64,000 bases of DNA, from positions 64,001 to 128,000 of IMG/VR virus record IMGVR_UViG_3300020399_000132; one strand, written 5' to 3'. The translations under genes and the position numbers were made by a program. Of the stretch, positions 23,338 to 55,403 are shown piece after piece. Every line of letters begins with the position of its first letter. Positions within the stretch are counted from its first letter, which is position 1. The notes beneath the pieces were generated by a model. The model saw only the letters and a program-made list of their open reading frames with translations, had not been told where the DNA came from and did no database searches. Source of the stretch: a virus (Duplodnaviria > Caudoviricetes).

Positions 23338-23448
23338 TCTGGGGTGGCGAAATAGGGAAACGCGGCACGTTGTTTGCGTGTTATCTTTGGTTTGATCGAT
23401 ATAATCTAGATCAAAGATGTGTTGGTTCGAGTCCAACCCCCAGAGCCA
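23338..23448 (+). tRNA. Non-canonical tRNA with GTT (Asn) anticodon and 39-nt variable arm
   Basis: Acceptor TCTGGGG/CCCCAGA, G73, encoded CCA; D-arm GCG-AAATAGGGAAA-CGC; anticodon arm GCACG-TTGTTTG-CGTGT; T-arm GTTGG-TTCGAGT-CCAAC. Confidence 0.85.
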
Positions 23449-52386: not shown

Positions 52387-52629
52387 TTATTTTTTTGGTT
52401 CGTCTGGAAGGTATCGTCTACTCTTTTTAAGGATCCTATCTTTTCTCTTCTTTTTTTCTTTTTGCTTCTCTTTTTCCTTATCTGTTAGAGCTAGCATAGG
52501 AGGACTCTCTTGAGTATCTGAATACGTTGGTCTAACAGCAGCGGCAAATGATGTAGTTGAAAGCTTTTCAGTGGGGTTGAGATGAGGATGAGCTTCGAAG
52601 AATGCTCCAAATTCTTTAAATGTTTTCAT
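52387..52629 (-). CDS. Small internal head protein
   Basis: MKTFKEF N-terminus. Confidence 0.65.
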   Translation of the reverse strand: MKTFKEFGAFFEAHPHLNPTEKLSTTSFAAAVRPTYSDTQESPPMLALTDKEKEKQKEKKKRKDRILKKSRRYLPDEPKK

Positions 52630-52644
52630 ATTACATGGACATTT

Positions 52645-53121
52645 CTACTTTAATTTTTTAGGTGGGTGCTTGTGAGTTTGTTCTCTTGTTATTGTAACTT
52701 CTGATGCTTCCAGAACCACGTTGGATCCAATTTGTGAAGCAGGAGGTGGAATAACTACATATTGTTCTATGTTGCCCCTTTTATCTAAGCTATGGCTAAC
52801 TACTACTAATTCTTCCTCACCCAAACTTGAGTGTCGAACATGAGTAGCTCAATTATGTTCCAGAGCTTTTTCAGAGATTGTGTCTAATTTATCAGCTATC
52901 CACGTATAGGGGTCACCATCGCGAGCTTTTGCTACTCCGTATGGCATATCTGTCTGCCAGTGATTCATTAATGCATCATATAACTTTGGCAAATCTAGTA
53001 AATCTTCTTTACCATCTTTAAATGCTTTGTAATCTTTAGCATGTGCTTTGAGAATATTTTGGAGTTCTCGATCCATGCGTAATTCTTGTTCATCAATTAC
53101 ATGCTCTATGAATGTCTTCAT
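52645..53121 (-). CDS. Candidate selenoprotein (158 aa with TGA=Sec at 52849-52851); virion-type protein
   Basis: 90-aa ORF continues in frame for 67 codons after TGA (HN*ATHVRH...HKHPPKKLK), filling the gap to the next gene; SECIS-like hairpin follows. Confidence 0.7.
52800..52848 (-). promoter_or_regulatory. Bacterial SECIS-like element
   Basis: GCTACT...CACTCA-AGTT-TGGGTG...AGTAGT immediately 3' of the in-frame TGA. Confidence 0.62.
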
Positions 53122-55403
53122 CCGGTTAATTTCCTTTTCTTATTCCATACTCCGAGAAAACCACCCTTATAATATATGTGTGGTTCTCCACCCTTTTTGA
53201 ATGACTTCGCTAGGGTCTTTTCAGCTTTTACAACATCTTTTTTATCTACCCATAGCTTACCATCTTCCCAATAGCTTTTAATACCAGCGTCATCTAATGC
53301 CATATTAGCTTGGAGCTTATTACTCTCGTCAATTTTCTTTTTAGCTGCTCTATCGAATTTAAATGCTTGATAATCTTTCTTAGCTGCTTGGTAATCTGCG
53401 CGTTTCGATTTAAGATTTTGTCCTGGTGGTTGACTAGTGTCTCCAACCCTTGAAGCGGCTCGATCTGATACAGCTCTTTGTTGCCCAGCTTTCTTTTTAG
53501 CTGCTTGTCCTGCGCGTTGTAACAGGTCTTTCGAAAGTTCGTTAACGGAATTGGTTTTATCGCGGCTTTTAGCAAGAAACAGTTTGTCCCGCGTTTTCTT
53601 CTGACTGCCTACCGACCTGGCCATCATCTCATTTTTACTTGTTACCTTCTCCACTGCTTTCTTAGCTATGTGCTTTATTGCTTTTCTAGCAATGAACGCA
53701 CCAACTGGTCCGAGTTCCTTAACCTCAACTTCGTCATAAAAAGTACCTCTGGTAGCTTGCTTTCCTGGATTTCTCCGCTTCTCTCTTCCGACTGTAGTTC
53801 TAAACAGACTTTTGGAAATTGGACCATCCGGTTGTTTTTCAACTTTTCCACCTTTCTTTTTAAAAGCAGCGATTTTGTCAGCGTAATCGCTTTCTTTTTC
53901 ATCAATAACATCTTCCTTTTTAAAAGCTGTATCCCGTTGCTTGACATCGACGGCCGCACTGAATTTTCCGGCTTGTTTCTCTCTCTTTGCTGCCTTTTTG
54001 CCTGCTTCGTCAGCACCAAAAGCATGTCCTTTACCTTTCACTCTCGTCGCCCAATCTTGTGCGTCTCTTTGTGTTGCGGCATCCTTCTTTGCTGCGCCGG
54101 CTGCGCGGTTTAATAGTCCAGTTGAGATTTCATCAACAACTTCTCCTGCTCTTGCCTTTTTAAGCTTAGCTAGAGTTTCTGGAGTGGTAGGAACTGCTCT
54201 AGCCTTCTTCCTCATCTCTGATTCTTTTCTTTTATGATCATACATATCTATGCCGGATGAATCAACTTCATTAACTTTATCTCTTAACTCAGCGAAAGTC
54301 TTCTTATTACCTTCAACATAACCAGTATACTTATCTTTCTTAGGATTCTGATTTGGGTAACCGTGTTTCTTTACTGATTCTCTCTTCTTTATTGTGCCGA
54401 CATATTCATCTACCATTTTTCCATCCTTGTAATGAGCGGCATGTTTATGATCACCGCCGCCTTTACGAATCTTATCTAATTTTTTATCATCCTGATATCT
54501 ACTTGAACTATAATTTTGACCAGTTTTTGTATTTTTAATACTATACTGCGGTCTTTTTAAACTTTTTATTAACTCTAGTGCATTTTTGTCTTCATCAACT
54601 TCTACTTCTTCATTTGTCCGGAATCCAGCTTGTACTGGATTATCTATTGTACCAAAAACATATTGATGCAAATCTTTAGGTACAATCTTTTTGGCTTTTG
54701 CTTCCATATCTCTTTGAACATATATTCTGTCTCCAAAATACATAGAGTTACCATACTTTGCTGGTATACCTTTTTTCTTTAAAAGTGCGATTGCTTTCTC
54801 AGAATCTTTTTTAATTTCTGGATGCTTCCTACCTTTAGGATCGGGTTTTGACTTGTCTCTGCTGTCTTCAACAATTTCTACTTCTTCTAATACACGTTTT
54901 AAAGTAGTTTTCTCTCTTTTTGTTAATCCACCAATGCCATCAACCCATGCATCTTTGTCTGCCGTAGAAGTTTTATCGCCCATTTTCATCTTGAATTTTT
55001 TAACATAGTCATTCAGATTTGCTTCATCGATGTAGAACTCTTCTTTAGCAAGTAAAACTGCTATCTTCTTTAGATTTTCTCTTTCTGATTTGCTAAGCAT
55101 TTTTAATGCTCTATCATTAGCTATTTTCTCAAGAGATTTGGCATATTCTTTTGTAGATTCATCAACATCTACACCCCTTATCCTGTTAAAAAATTTTTGA
55201 TACGTTTCTTTATGGGTAAGGCCTAACTTCTGTAGTCTTTTCTTTTTCTCATCCGTATCTGTTAGCGCTTTGGATCTTATGTCTGGCCGATCAGGCTTCA
55301 CTTGACCCATAGAATCTGGTTTACACTGCGACGCCAGAGCAGACGTTTTGGACAATCCAGGAGTGTCGCAAAATGCAGGTCTCTCTTGGAGGTTTTCTGA
55401 CAT
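53118..55403 (-). CDS. Large Lys-rich internal head polyprotein-like protein
   Basis: Charged modules separated by V/I-D/N-E motifs; AAGGA RBS; late-promoter-like site upstream. Confidence 0.7.
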   Translation of the reverse strand: MSENLQERPAFCDTPGLSKTSALASQCKPDSMGQVKPDRPDIRSKALTDTDEKKKRLQKLGLTHKETYQKFFNRIRGVDVDESTKEYAKSLEKIANDRALKMLSKSERENLKKIAVLLAKEEFYIDEANLNDYVKKFKMKMGDKTSTADKDAWVDGIGGLTKREKTTLKRVLEEVEIVEDSRDKSKPDPKGRKHPEIKKDSEKAIALLKKKGIPAKYGNSMYFGDRIYVQRDMEAKAKKIVPKDLHQYVFGTIDNPVQAGFRTNEEVEVDEDKNALELIKSLKRPQYSIKNTKTGQNYSSSRYQDDKKLDKIRKGGGDHKHAAHYKDGKMVDEYVGTIKKRESVKKHGYPNQNPKKDKYTGYVEGNKKTFAELRDKVNEVDSSGIDMYDHKRKESEMRKKARAVPTTPETLAKLKKARAGEVVDEISTGLLNRAAGAAKKDAATQRDAQDWATRVKGKGHAFGADEAGKKAAKREKQAGKFSAAVDVKQRDTAFKKEDVIDEKESDYADKIAAFKKKGGKVEKQPDGPISKSLFRTTVGREKRRNPGKQATRGTFYDEVEVKELGPVGAFIARKAIKHIAKKAVEKVTSKNEMMARSVGSQKKTRDKLFLAKSRDKTNSVNELSKDLLQRAGQAAKKKAGQQRAVSDRAASRVGDTSQPPGQNLKSKRADYQAAKKDYQAFKFDRAAKKKIDESNKLQANMALDDAGIKSYWEDGKLWVDKKDVVKAEKTLAKSFKKGGEPHIYYKGGFLGVWNKKRKLTG

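What the first reader, a model, noticed from the sequence alone, without database searches (positions are those of the whole stretch)
52645..53121. Candidate phage selenoprotein: in-frame TGA plus bacterial SECIS in a virion-type protein
Seen: the 90-aa ORF 'ends' at ...LEHN-TGA, but the frame stays open for 67 more codons (ATHVRHSSLGEEELVVVSHSLDKRGNIEQYVV...EQTHKHPPKKLK-TAG). This fills an otherwise unexplained 200-bp gap in a tightly packed operon. Directly after the TGA is a hairpin with lower stem GCTACT/AGTAGT, upper stem CACTCA/TGGGTG, and apical loop AGTT starting 21 nt after the TGA with G at loop position 2. Established: this matches the general bacterial SECIS geometry (apical loop ~16-37 nt from UGA, G among the first two loop bases). 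From memory and unverified: marine T4-like phage head proteins carry an H-[ND]-C-A-[TK]-H-V-x-H motif, which would put Cys exactly at this TGA. Inference: the phage uses the host SelA/SelB/SelD machinery to put Sec in a His-rich metal/redox site. Se availability would then set the ratio of long to short product, and the host should be a Sec user.
Basis: partly seen in the sequence, partly recalled or inferred. Interest (0 to 1): 0.9.

Follow-up and report, generated by a model that had tools for sequence, protein, structure and literature searches.

The report
Phage gene family encoding selenocysteine
A small gene of this 177-kb uncultured marine T4-like phage has an internal UGA "stop" that over 50 distinct related phage sequences keep at a position where all other relatives have cysteine, always followed by an RNA hairpin of the bacterial selenocysteine-insertion type, so it most likely encodes a selenoprotein, which I found reported for no virus of bacteria.

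Summary
On the minus strand, ORF 53121-52849 ends at TGA (52851-52849, not 52848-52846), and the frame stays open for 67 more codons to TAG at 52647-52645.

- **TGA is conserved.** It sits at the same codon in 12 diverged metagenomic relatives read in detail. A hairpin-blind DNA pattern found 47 further unique contexts in metagenomes and 26 of 26 hits in IMG/VR.
- **Downstream is coding.** dN/dS is 0.13-0.33 at dS about 1.
- **Relatives have Cys.** All 13 relatives without TGA, including cyanophages P-SSM7 and P-HM2, have Cys there, in H-x-C-A-[ST]-x-V-x-H. With the site masked, one branch (100/99) separates TGA forms from Cys forms.
- **A hairpin follows every TGA.** Its loop starts 18-22 nt after UGA with G at loop position 1-2. 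It occurs in four sequence classes with different peptide sequences and compensatory pair changes, and is absent from the Cys forms.

The genome uses TGA as an ordinary stop and has no tRNA-Sec, suppressor tRNA, selA or selD.

Best reading (about 0.8): a phage selenoprotein decoded by host SelB. It has a new SH3-like His-rich domain and a T4 capsid-targeting-like N-terminus.

The host is unknown, which is the main gap. This scan has flagged other candidate phage selenoprotein families on other genomes.

The parts
52645..53121 (-). Complete recoded ORF: 158 codons (M1...N90, U91, A92...K158) plus the TAG stop at 52647-52645.
   Evidence: Translation with TGA=U. Full-length relatives keep the same architecture.
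52849..52851 (-). In-frame UGA, codon 91, read as selenocysteine.
   Evidence: It is at the same alignment column in 9 of 9 close relatives, in 4 stand-alone forms, in 75 metagenome matches and in 26 IMG/VR matches. Cys occupies the position in all 13 homologous domains without TGA.
52802..52848 (-). SECIS-like stem-loop. Lower stem 52848-52843 pairs with 52807-52802. Upper stem CACUCA 52833-52828 pairs with UGGGUG 52823-52818. Apical loop AGUU is 52827-52824.
   Evidence: Fold at z = -2.9. The consensus fold is kept in 8 of 8 sequences. Third codon positions in the stem are invariant in 11 of 11, and Leu is TTG only here. Hairpin classes with other sequences sit at the same distance. The hairpin arises in 0.27% of synonymous resamples.
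53089..53121 (-). N-terminus MKTFIEHVIDE, resembling the T4 capsid-targeting sequence MKTYQEFIAE.
   Evidence: The T4 IPIII and IPII N-termini were read from NC_000866. The CTS concept is from PMC9026906. The next gene (52629) starts MKTFKEFGAFFE, and stand-alone relatives start MKTFNEF or MKTFLEM. Packaging itself is inferred.
52870..53088 (-). N-terminal helical module (...LPKLYDALMNHWQTDMPYGVAKARDGDPYTWI...). It is widespread in phages and also occurs alone or repeated in large proteins.
   Evidence: 178 IMG/VR loci carry it. Stand-alone 82-84-aa versions occur in phages 88% identical over this domain and lacking the C-module. The AF2 model is helical here, pLDDT 85-90.
52648..52869 (-). 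C-terminal His-rich small beta-barrel domain. Its first strand spans the UGA (KALEHN-U-ATHVRH...SHSLD...HKHPPKK).
   Evidence: AF2 places strands at 87-97, 101-112, 118-124, 135-138 and 143-152, pLDDT 72-82. Weak KOW/Tudor/SH3 matches, Z up to 5. BFVD matches are to the same domain in cyanophage proteins. No Pfam family. The profile search found 20 representatives.

Best explanation
The gene encodes a 158-residue phage selenoprotein. I infer that host SelB carrying Sec-tRNA(Sec) binds the stem-loop that begins right after the UGA and inserts selenocysteine at codon 91.

That residue lies in the first beta-strand of a small SH3-like barrel, within the conserved motif H-[ND]-U-A-T-H-[VI]-x-H. 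Two further conserved His positions are H110 and the H-x-H at 150-152. Sec replaces the invariant Cys of the Cys-type relatives found in cyanophages, so it is probably a redox-active or metal-binding residue.

Ribosomes that terminate at the UGA would release a 90-residue N-domain protein. That protein resembles the stand-alone N-domain proteins of closely related phages, so the gene probably yields a short and a long product. The share of the long product would depend on how efficiently the infected cell inserts Sec.

The N-terminus resembles the T4 capsid-targeting sequence, which suggests the protein is packed into the head and injected with the DNA.

Shown here: the conserved UGA, Cys at that position in homologues, coding constraint across and beyond the UGA, and a hairpin that is conserved in position while its sequence varies. 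Inferred: Sec itself, the use of host machinery, the chemistry of the site, and packaging.
For: 1. **UGA conserved.** It is at the same column in 9 related loci representing 7 lineages. One form is on record in 150 blocks of the collection. It is also kept in stand-alone genes, where it is codon 24-41 of an 88-105 codon ORF. Gene callers that produced full-length proteins did so only by reading TGA as W.
2. **Wide survey.** A DNA pattern that contains no hairpin bases found at least 118 metagenome stretches. Of 81 matches read, 75 are family members with 47 unique contexts. In IMG/VR, 26 of 26 matches are family members.
3. **Translated through the UGA.** Downstream omega is 0.13-0.33 at dS 0.3-1.6. 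Synonymous changes occur in the codons between the UGA and the first possible start codon. The six residues before the U (K-A-[IL]-x-H-[DN]) are conserved in both fused and stand-alone forms.
4. **Cys in homologues.** All 13 homologous domains without TGA have Cys at the position. With the site masked, one branch (100/99) separates the 13 TGA forms from the 13 Cys forms.
5. **Hairpin always present.** It is found in 12 of 12 TGA forms and 0 of 4 Cys forms.
6. **Four hairpin classes.** Loops are AGUU, GGUC, AGUCU and AGGAU. They sit on different peptide sequences (HPSLG, APVGA, MEWKSS, VAWKDS). In every class the loop starts 18-22 nt after UGA with G at position 1-2.
7. **Compensatory changes.** Pairs change on both sides between classes A and B (3 of 5 pairs) and between C and D (G-C to A-U, A-U to C-G).
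8. **Not a by-product of the peptide.** Synonymous resampling gives such a hairpin in 0.27%, 0.37% and 1.7% of trials for classes A, C and D.
9. **No global recoding.** TGA ends 84 of 241 long ORFs. The only tRNAs are Cys, Val, Tyr and Asn. No other in-frame TGA passes the filter.
10. **Phage groups differ as expected.** Cys forms are in Prochlorococcus and Synechococcus phages. [quoted passage not shown] The window's genome and five long TGA-bearing viral records lack psbA.
Against: - **Host unknown.** Sec capacity of the host is therefore untested. The phage carries no selA or selD and no tRNA-Sec over the cut-off.
- **The tmRNA hint points to a group where Sec use is uncommon.** The phage's permuted tmRNA scores best as the alphaproteobacterial type. 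One preprint reports that 135 complete Pelagibacter genomes lack selC. SelA was found in only about 38 of 301 sampled alphaproteobacterial species.
- **Limited covariation within a class.** Within the commonest hairpin class, changes are one-sided (G-C to G-U). The class B hairpin is largely forced by its peptide, arising in 39% of resamples, and a few class B members have a weakened stem.
- **No direct evidence of translation or selenium.** There are no protein, RNA or selenium data.
Confidence: 0.8

Rival explanations
1. Programmed UGA read-through without selenium. A near-cognate host tRNA (Trp or Cys) reads the UGA at low frequency, perhaps helped by the hairpin. This would give a short and a long isoform, as with the UGA-extended A1 coat protein of RNA phage Qbeta (Qbeta case from my own knowledge).
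For: The short product equals a domain that exists alone in related phages, so a two-isoform design is plausible. The phage encodes tRNA-Cys(GCA). No host Sec machinery has been shown.
Against: The residue is an invariant Cys in all 13 relatives without TGA, and Trp there would destroy the motif. In stand-alone genes the UGA is at codon 24-41, so the short product would be a leader peptide only. The hairpin has bSECIS geometry, with G (mostly GU) in the loop in all four classes. GCA pairing with UGA needs a G-A wobble mismatch.
Confidence: 0.1
2. Two separate genes. The N-domain gene ends at TGA, and an independent downstream gene starts at an internal TTG or GTG.
For: Gene callers annotate it this way: 90-96-aa proteins P0005-P0008 and downstream ORFs P0009 and P0011. 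A TTG (Leu of SLG) is invariant.
Against: Amino-acid conservation with synonymous change runs from the UGA to that TTG. The homology to the Cys domain spans the UGA. The predicted first beta-strand (87-97) spans it too. No Shine-Dalgarno sequence precedes the TTG, and GTG is absent in the window and in L007/L008. Class B, C and D forms have no such TTG.
Confidence: 0.04
3. A nonsense-mutated or decaying fusion gene, a sequencing error, or a phage-wide reassignment of TGA.
For: Close relatives lack the whole C-module, so the module is dispensable in some phages.
Against: The TGA is kept in dozens of independent assemblies at dS about 1, with omega of 0.33 or less downstream. TGA is the ordinary stop of 84 of 241 long ORFs, and there is no suppressor tRNA.
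Confidence: 0.02

Closest known systems
Bacterial selenoprotein genes with an in-ORF SECIS bound by SelB (prototype E. coli fdhF; mechanism as summarised in PMC1794560)
   Same: An in-frame UGA is followed at once by a stem-loop inside the coding sequence. [quoted passage not shown] One hairpin class here even has the loop GGUC, which is the fdhF loop as I recall it. Cys-containing homologues align at the UGA.
   Different: The gene is carried by a virulent-type T4-like phage that has none of selA, selD or tRNA-Sec. The protein is a new, unannotated domain, not a known oxidoreductase family. Decoding by SelB has not been shown.
Cys-type homologues in cyanomyoviruses (P-SSM7 PSSM7_192, P-HM2 PHM2_164, MED4-213, S-ShM2, S-RIM14; annotated 'possible cytitidyltransferase' or hypothetical)
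   Same: They share the same barrel domain and motif, H-x-C-A-[ST]-x-V-x-H ... H-x-L-[DT] ... H-x-H. They match by sequence and by predicted structure.
   Different: They have TGT (Cys) and no hairpin at that distance. Most carry a second Cys 14 residues further on, which the TGA forms lack. Their hosts are cyanobacteria. No Pfam cytidylyltransferase domain was found on the one checked, P0003, so that name is unsupported there.
T4 internal head proteins IPI, IPII and IPIII with the 10-residue capsid-targeting sequence
   Same: The N-terminus follows M-K-T-[YF]-x-E-[FH]-[IV], followed by an acidic residue. They are small genes in a T4-like genome, with several such genes side by side.
   Different: There is no sequence similarity beyond the N-terminus. 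Packaging and cleavage by the prohead protease are untested.
Viral selenoproteins of eukaryotic viruses (glutathione peroxidase homologues of molluscum contagiosum and fowlpox viruses; from my own knowledge)
   Same: A virus encodes a UGA-Sec protein and relies on the host's Sec machinery.
   Different: Those use a eukaryotic 3'-UTR SECIS and a captured host enzyme. This one uses a bacterial in-ORF hairpin and a phage-specific domain.

Membership tests
Bacterial-type selenoprotein gene (UGA plus in-ORF SECIS) | In-frame UGA conserved at the same codon among orthologues | tested here: met
   9 of 9 close loci, 4 stand-alone forms, 75 metagenome matches and 26 IMG/VR matches.
Bacterial-type selenoprotein gene (UGA plus in-ORF SECIS) | Homologues with Cys aligned to the UGA | tested here: met
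   13 of 13 domains without TGA have Cys and no other residue was seen.
Bacterial-type selenoprotein gene (UGA plus in-ORF SECIS) | Reading frame downstream of the UGA is under purifying selection and homologous to the same domain | tested here: met
   Omega is 0.13-0.33. PHROG and tblastn matches span residues 85-124.
Bacterial-type selenoprotein gene (UGA plus in-ORF SECIS) | Stem-loop just after the UGA, apical loop about 16-37 nt away, G among the first two loop bases (bSECISearch rule recalled from memory; conserved loop G named in PMC1794560) | tested here: met
   Loops start 18-22 nt after UGA. They read AGUU, GGUC, AGUCU, AGGAU, AGGU.
Bacterial-type selenoprotein gene (UGA plus in-ORF SECIS) | Hairpin maintained by selection on the RNA, not as a by-product of the peptide | tested here: met
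   Four sequence classes show double-sided pair changes. Synonymous sites in the stem are invariant. The hairpin arises in 0.27-1.7% of synonymous resamples for classes A, C and D. It is absent in the Cys forms.
Bacterial-type selenoprotein gene (UGA plus in-ORF SECIS) | selA, selB, selC and selD available in the cell where the gene is translated | not testable with these tools
   The host is unknown. The phage has no selA, selD or tRNA-Sec. SelA is present in about 38 of 301 sampled alphaproteobacterial species.
Bacterial-type selenoprotein gene (UGA plus in-ORF SECIS) | Selenium found in the protein | not testable with these tools
   This needs 75Se labelling or mass spectrometry.
T4-type internal head protein with a capsid-targeting sequence | N-terminal roughly 10-residue CTS resembling MKTYQEFIAE | tested here: met
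   MKTFIEHVIDE compared with T4 IPIII and IPII MKTYQEFIAE. This is a resemblance only, and position 7 is H rather than F.
T4-type internal head protein with a capsid-targeting sequence | Cleavage by the prohead protease and presence in virions | not testable with these tools
   A possible I-D-E site lies at residues 9-11. There are no proteomic data.
SH3-like small beta-barrel (KOW, Tudor, chromo, SH3) | Five-stranded barrel that superposes on solved members | tested here: inconclusive
   The best matches are Spt5/NusG KOW at Z 4.5-5.0 and Tudor/SH3 at Z about 4. These are below the level that separates true relatives from common arrangements.
Cytidylyltransferase (name carried by cyanophage homologues) | Match to a nucleotidyltransferase domain model | tested here: not met
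   No Pfam match for P0001, P0003 or seven other homologues.

The most novel reading that the evidence does not exclude
A family of capsid-targeted, injected phage selenoproteins. Widespread marine T4-like phages that lack psbA would hijack the host's SelB/tRNA-Sec system to place selenocysteine in a His-rich site of a small barrel protein delivered with the DNA. Selenium supply would then tune the phage's proteome. The presence of the UGA form would mark the still unknown, abundant host as a selenocysteine user.
Probability: 0.35. Interest if true: 0.9.

Novelty: new variant of a known kind. Interest (0 to 1): 0.8.

Why it matters
Selenocysteine decoding is documented for cells and for a few eukaryotic viruses. 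Three full-text searches of the held library found no phage-encoded selenoprotein.

If this one is confirmed, several things follow:
- Phages exploit host UGA recoding.
- Standard gene callers split such genes or mistranslate them as TGA=W. Five members tested here were on record only in that form.
- A trace element could modulate phage protein output.
- The Cys versus UGA state of one phage gene could serve as a marker of host Sec capacity, because Cys forms sit in cyanophages and UGA forms in phages lacking psbA.

The family is abundant in Tara, GOS and JGI ocean assemblies. It also provides four natural SECIS variants and a new Sec/Cys domain whose chemistry is unknown.

Tried and rejected
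- **No DNA match to known phages.** blastn of the locus against 50,697 phage records found nothing.
- **No family annotation.** Pfam gave nothing for the protein or its homologues. The Atlas feature search gave only a 0.76 hit to an unnamed cluster.
- **Host inference failed.**
  - The phage tmRNA is about 50% identical to each of five small alphaproteobacterial tmRNAs, so it is uninformative.
  - Genome contigs held only distant N-domain relatives, in a Rickettsiales MAG and an Erysipelotrichaceae MAG.
  - Records behind the metagenome loci are not held.
  - The other TGA-bearing phage records have no permuted tmRNA.
- **Best hit of the class C query.** It was a SAG-associated marine virus, AG-345-P14. 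This is a Cys form in a Kyanoviridae record.
- **No second selenoprotein gene in this genome.** None passed the filters, and no CDYTGWD-type gene from another finding of this scan is present.
- The alignment was too diverse, so I replaced it with a DNA pattern.
- **Odd tRNA rejected as tRNA-Sec.** The tRNA-like gene at 23338-23448 has anticodon GUU.

Full report
**1. What is in the sequence**

The gene lies on the minus strand. An ATG at 53121 overlaps the stop of the upstream 761-codon gene (ATGA). It opens a 90-codon ORF that ends ...SEKALEHN-TGA, with the TGA at 52851-52849. The same frame continues for 67 codons (ATHVRHSSLGEEELVVVSHSLDKRGNIEQYVV...REQTHKHPPKKLK) to TAG at 52647-52645, 15 nt before the next gene's ATG at 52629. 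No other ORF of 60 aa or more occupies those 219 bp.

GCUACU pairs with AGUAGU, CACUCA pairs with UGGGUG, and the loop is AGUU with 21 nt between it and the UGA. MFE is -15.4 kcal/mol and z = -2.9.

The window is bases 64001-128000 of a 177,419-bp IMG/VR virus record with 33.6% G+C. Its major capsid protein is 64-67% identical to those of cyanomyoviruses, a Stenotrophomonas phage and the Methylophilales phage Melnitz. It is therefore a T4-like phage with no close cultured relative, and it has no psbA.

**2. The TGA is conserved and is translated through**

A protein search returned four clusters of 90-96 residues that all end ...[EV]HN. It also returned a 179-residue protein with W at that position and a 120-residue downstream ORF. 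The DNA behind them shows TGA in every case. The W protein exists only because its contig was called with TGA=W.

Across 9 loci (7 lineages):
- The TGA column is invariant.
- The frame stays open for 67-125 codons.
- Downstream dN/dS is 0.13-0.33, with dS between lineages of mostly 0.6-1.6.
- The codons between the TGA and the first possible start (the TTG of S-L-G) show synonymous changes: gct/gca/gcc, cat/cac, gtt/gtg, cga/cgg.

A profile search of 1.84 billion representatives found further W proteins. All four that I looked up are again TGA called as W. These are stand-alone genes with the form MKTFNEF...KAIRHD-U-ATHIKHPSLG.... The TGA is codon 24-41 of an 88-105 codon ORF. For three of the four, a Shine-Dalgarno sequence precedes the ATG. 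If the UGA were not decoded, their only product would be a short leader peptide.

A DNA pattern built from K-x-x-x-H-[NDH]-TGA-A-[ST]-H-[VIM], which contains no base of the hairpin, was then scanned.
- In metagenomes it found at least 118 stretches. Of 81 matches read, 75 are family members with 47 unique contexts.
- In IMG/VR, 26 of 26 matches are family members.

**3. Relatives have cysteine there**

Every homologous domain without TGA has Cys at the aligned position. That is 13 domains from 11 proteins, including P-SSM7 PSSM7_192 (SHDCASKVKH), P-HM2 PHM2_164 (KHSCATKVEH) and a 255-residue protein that has the same N-domain plus C-domain architecture as the window gene (SHSCATHVEH).

A maximum-likelihood tree of 26 domains was built with the site masked. 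One branch, with support 100/99, separates the 13 TGA forms from the 13 Cys forms. This fits a single switch followed by long retention of the TGA.

**4. The hairpin behaves like a SECIS**

All 12 TGA forms first examined have a 5-6-bp G+C-containing stem with a 4-nt loop that starts 18 or 22 nt after the UGA. Four Cys forms have nothing at that place.

In the commonest class, the codons forming the stem (CCA/TCA AGT TTG GGT) have invariant third positions in 11 of 11 sequences. Leu is TTG there and TTA, CTA or CTT elsewhere.

The wider survey shows four classes that sit on different peptides:

| Class | Peptide | Hairpin | Unique contexts |
|---|---|---|---|
| A | HPSLG | CA[CU][CU]CA-AGUU-UGGGUG | 26 |
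| B | APVGA | GCACC-GGUC-GGUGC | not tallied (my class filter was too narrow) |
| C | MEWKSS | GUGGA-AGUCU-UCCAC | 13 |
| D | VAWKDS | GCAUGGA-AGGAU-UCCGUGC | 2 |

Single variants also occur (loop AGGU; stem UGGAUG). All have G at loop position 1 or 2, and most have GU.

Pairs change on both sides while pairing is kept. This holds for 3 of 5 pairs between A and B, and between C and D for pair 18-32 (G-C to A-U) and pair 17-33 (A-U to C-G).

Resampling synonymous codons with this phage's codon usage recreates such a hairpin at these rates:
- Class A: 0.27%
- Class C: 0.37%
- Class D: 1.7%
- Class B: 39%, because its peptide largely forces the hairpin

Within class A the changes are one-sided only.

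In the whole 177-kb genome, only this TGA passes a filter that requires an open frame together with a hairpin.

**5. Alternatives**

- **Global reassignment is excluded.** TGA ends 84 of 241 long ORFs. The phage tRNAs are Cys, Val, Tyr and Asn only.
- **Sequencing error or nonsense mutation is excluded** by the comparative data.
- **Two separate genes does not fit.** Conservation and domain homology span the UGA, the predicted first strand (87-97) contains it, and there is no start codon or ribosome-binding site.
- **Selenium-free read-through cannot be ruled out without experiments.** It fits poorly with an invariant Cys in relatives and with the SECIS-type loop.

**6. What the protein is**

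*N-terminal half.* It is a helical module (...MPYGVAKARDGDPYxWI) present in 178 IMG/VR loci, often repeated in large proteins. In phages 88% identical over this domain it stands alone, and the whole C-module is missing.

*C-terminal half.* It is predicted as a five-stranded small barrel with pLDDT 72-82. Matches to KOW, Tudor and SH3 domains are weak, with Z of 5 or less. Matches to the same domain in cyanophage proteins are clear. It has no Pfam family, and the name 'possible cytitidyltransferase' on the homologues has no support.

*Conserved residues.* These are H89, U/C91, H94, H97, H110 and H150-x-H152. This suggests a metal or redox site, which is inference.

*N-terminus.* MKTFIEHVIDE resembles the T4 capsid-targeting sequence MKTYQEFIAE, which I read from T4 ipIII and ipII (concept in PMC9026906). 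The neighbouring gene and the stand-alone relatives also start MKTF/MKTY. Packaging into the head is a reasonable but untested inference.

**7. The host, which is the weak point**

The phage carries no selA or selD and no tRNA-Sec over the cut-off, so decoding must rely on the host.

- **tmRNA.** The phage's permuted tmRNA scores best as the alphaproteobacterial type, 61.7 bits against a threshold of 50.
- **Pelagibacter.** A 2026 preprint reports that 135 complete Pelagibacter genomes lack selC, whereas Actinomarina has the full machinery.
- **Alphaproteobacteria sampled here.** True SelA was present in about 38 of 301 species. One is a 1.6-Mb genome with 28-30% G+C and a selA-selB operon. 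It is the only one of the 42 species in its order with selA.
- **Other TGA-bearing phages.** The five long viral records lack psbA and lack a permuted tmRNA.
- **Cys forms.** They are in phages of Prochlorococcus and Synechococcus. [quoted passage not shown]

This split is what Sec decoding predicts, but it does not identify the host.

**8. Novelty**

Three literature searches found viral selenoproteins only for eukaryotic viruses and none for phages. Earlier follow-ups in this scan reported other candidate phage selenoprotein families on other genomes, so the phenomenon has been seen before within this scan. This family, its domain and its four hairpin classes are different from those.

The mechanism would be the known bacterial one. 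The new elements are the carrier (a phage), the protein domain and the likely capsid-targeted context.

**Verdict**

- Confidence that the UGA encodes selenocysteine is 0.8.
- The remainder is mostly selenium-free read-through.

Noticed in passing
window 23338-23448 (+): A tRNA-like gene with a 7-bp acceptor stem, a GUU anticodon in the loop UUGUUUG and a roughly 39-nt variable-arm hairpin. It directly follows a class II synthetase-like ORF flagged by another reader. ARAGORN and Rfam at gathering threshold do not call it. It is not a tRNA-Sec.
   Followed up: partly
L104:659-1044 (-) = G000:C1:6658-7043, outside the window: A phage-encoded permuted tmRNA: RF04321 at 109 bits and alpha_tmRNA RF01849 at 61.7 bits. 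It is only about 50% identical to the tmRNAs of five small alphaproteobacterial genomes. It is absent from five other TGA-bearing phage records.
   Followed up: partly
window 53118-55403 (-) and L020:1319-1690: The lysine-rich 761-aa upstream protein contains the segment VTSKNEMMARSVGSQKKTRDKLFLAKSRD. This segment reappears as a C-terminal extension of the selenoprotein homologue in L020 and L021 (KVTSKNEMMSRSVGSQKKSRDKIFLARSRD). Modules are being shuffled between neighbouring genes.
   Followed up: no
window 52387-52629 (-), 53121 (-); genome 131215 (-) and 6119 (-): Four genes of this phage start MKTF..., which resembles the T4 capsid-targeting sequence. Two of them are adjacent at the finding. 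They may form a set of internal head proteins.
   Followed up: partly
L004-L006 (IMG/VR UViGs 3300027844_001132, 3300027847_002103, 3300027838_001208): In phages 88% identical over the N-domain, that gene ends at ...KLNAI with ATATGA overlapping the next MKTFKEF gene. The whole roughly 230-bp TGA, SECIS and C-domain module is an insertion/deletion difference between close relatives.
   Followed up: yes
L112 (G009:C9:12000-24970): An unnamed 1.6-Mb alphaproteobacterial genome with 28-30% G+C carries selA (379.5 bits against a cut-off of 267.9) followed by a divergent selB (190 bits, full length). It is the only one of the 42 species in its order with selA. That order also contains the 'Rickettsiales bacterium MED657' MAG.
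   Followed up: partly
G000:C1:47538 (-), 16.5 kb before the window: Two long ORFs of 196 and 254 codons lie in the same frame, separated only by TGA (...VFYNE-TGA-LYCPFYHTL...). There is no strong hairpin, with dG60 of -5.5. They are probably adjacent genes.
   Followed up: no
public protein collections (P0004, P0012, P0013, P0014, P0025): Full-length members of this family are on record only as products called with TGA=W, so they carry a false Trp at the Sec/Cys position.
   Followed up: yes
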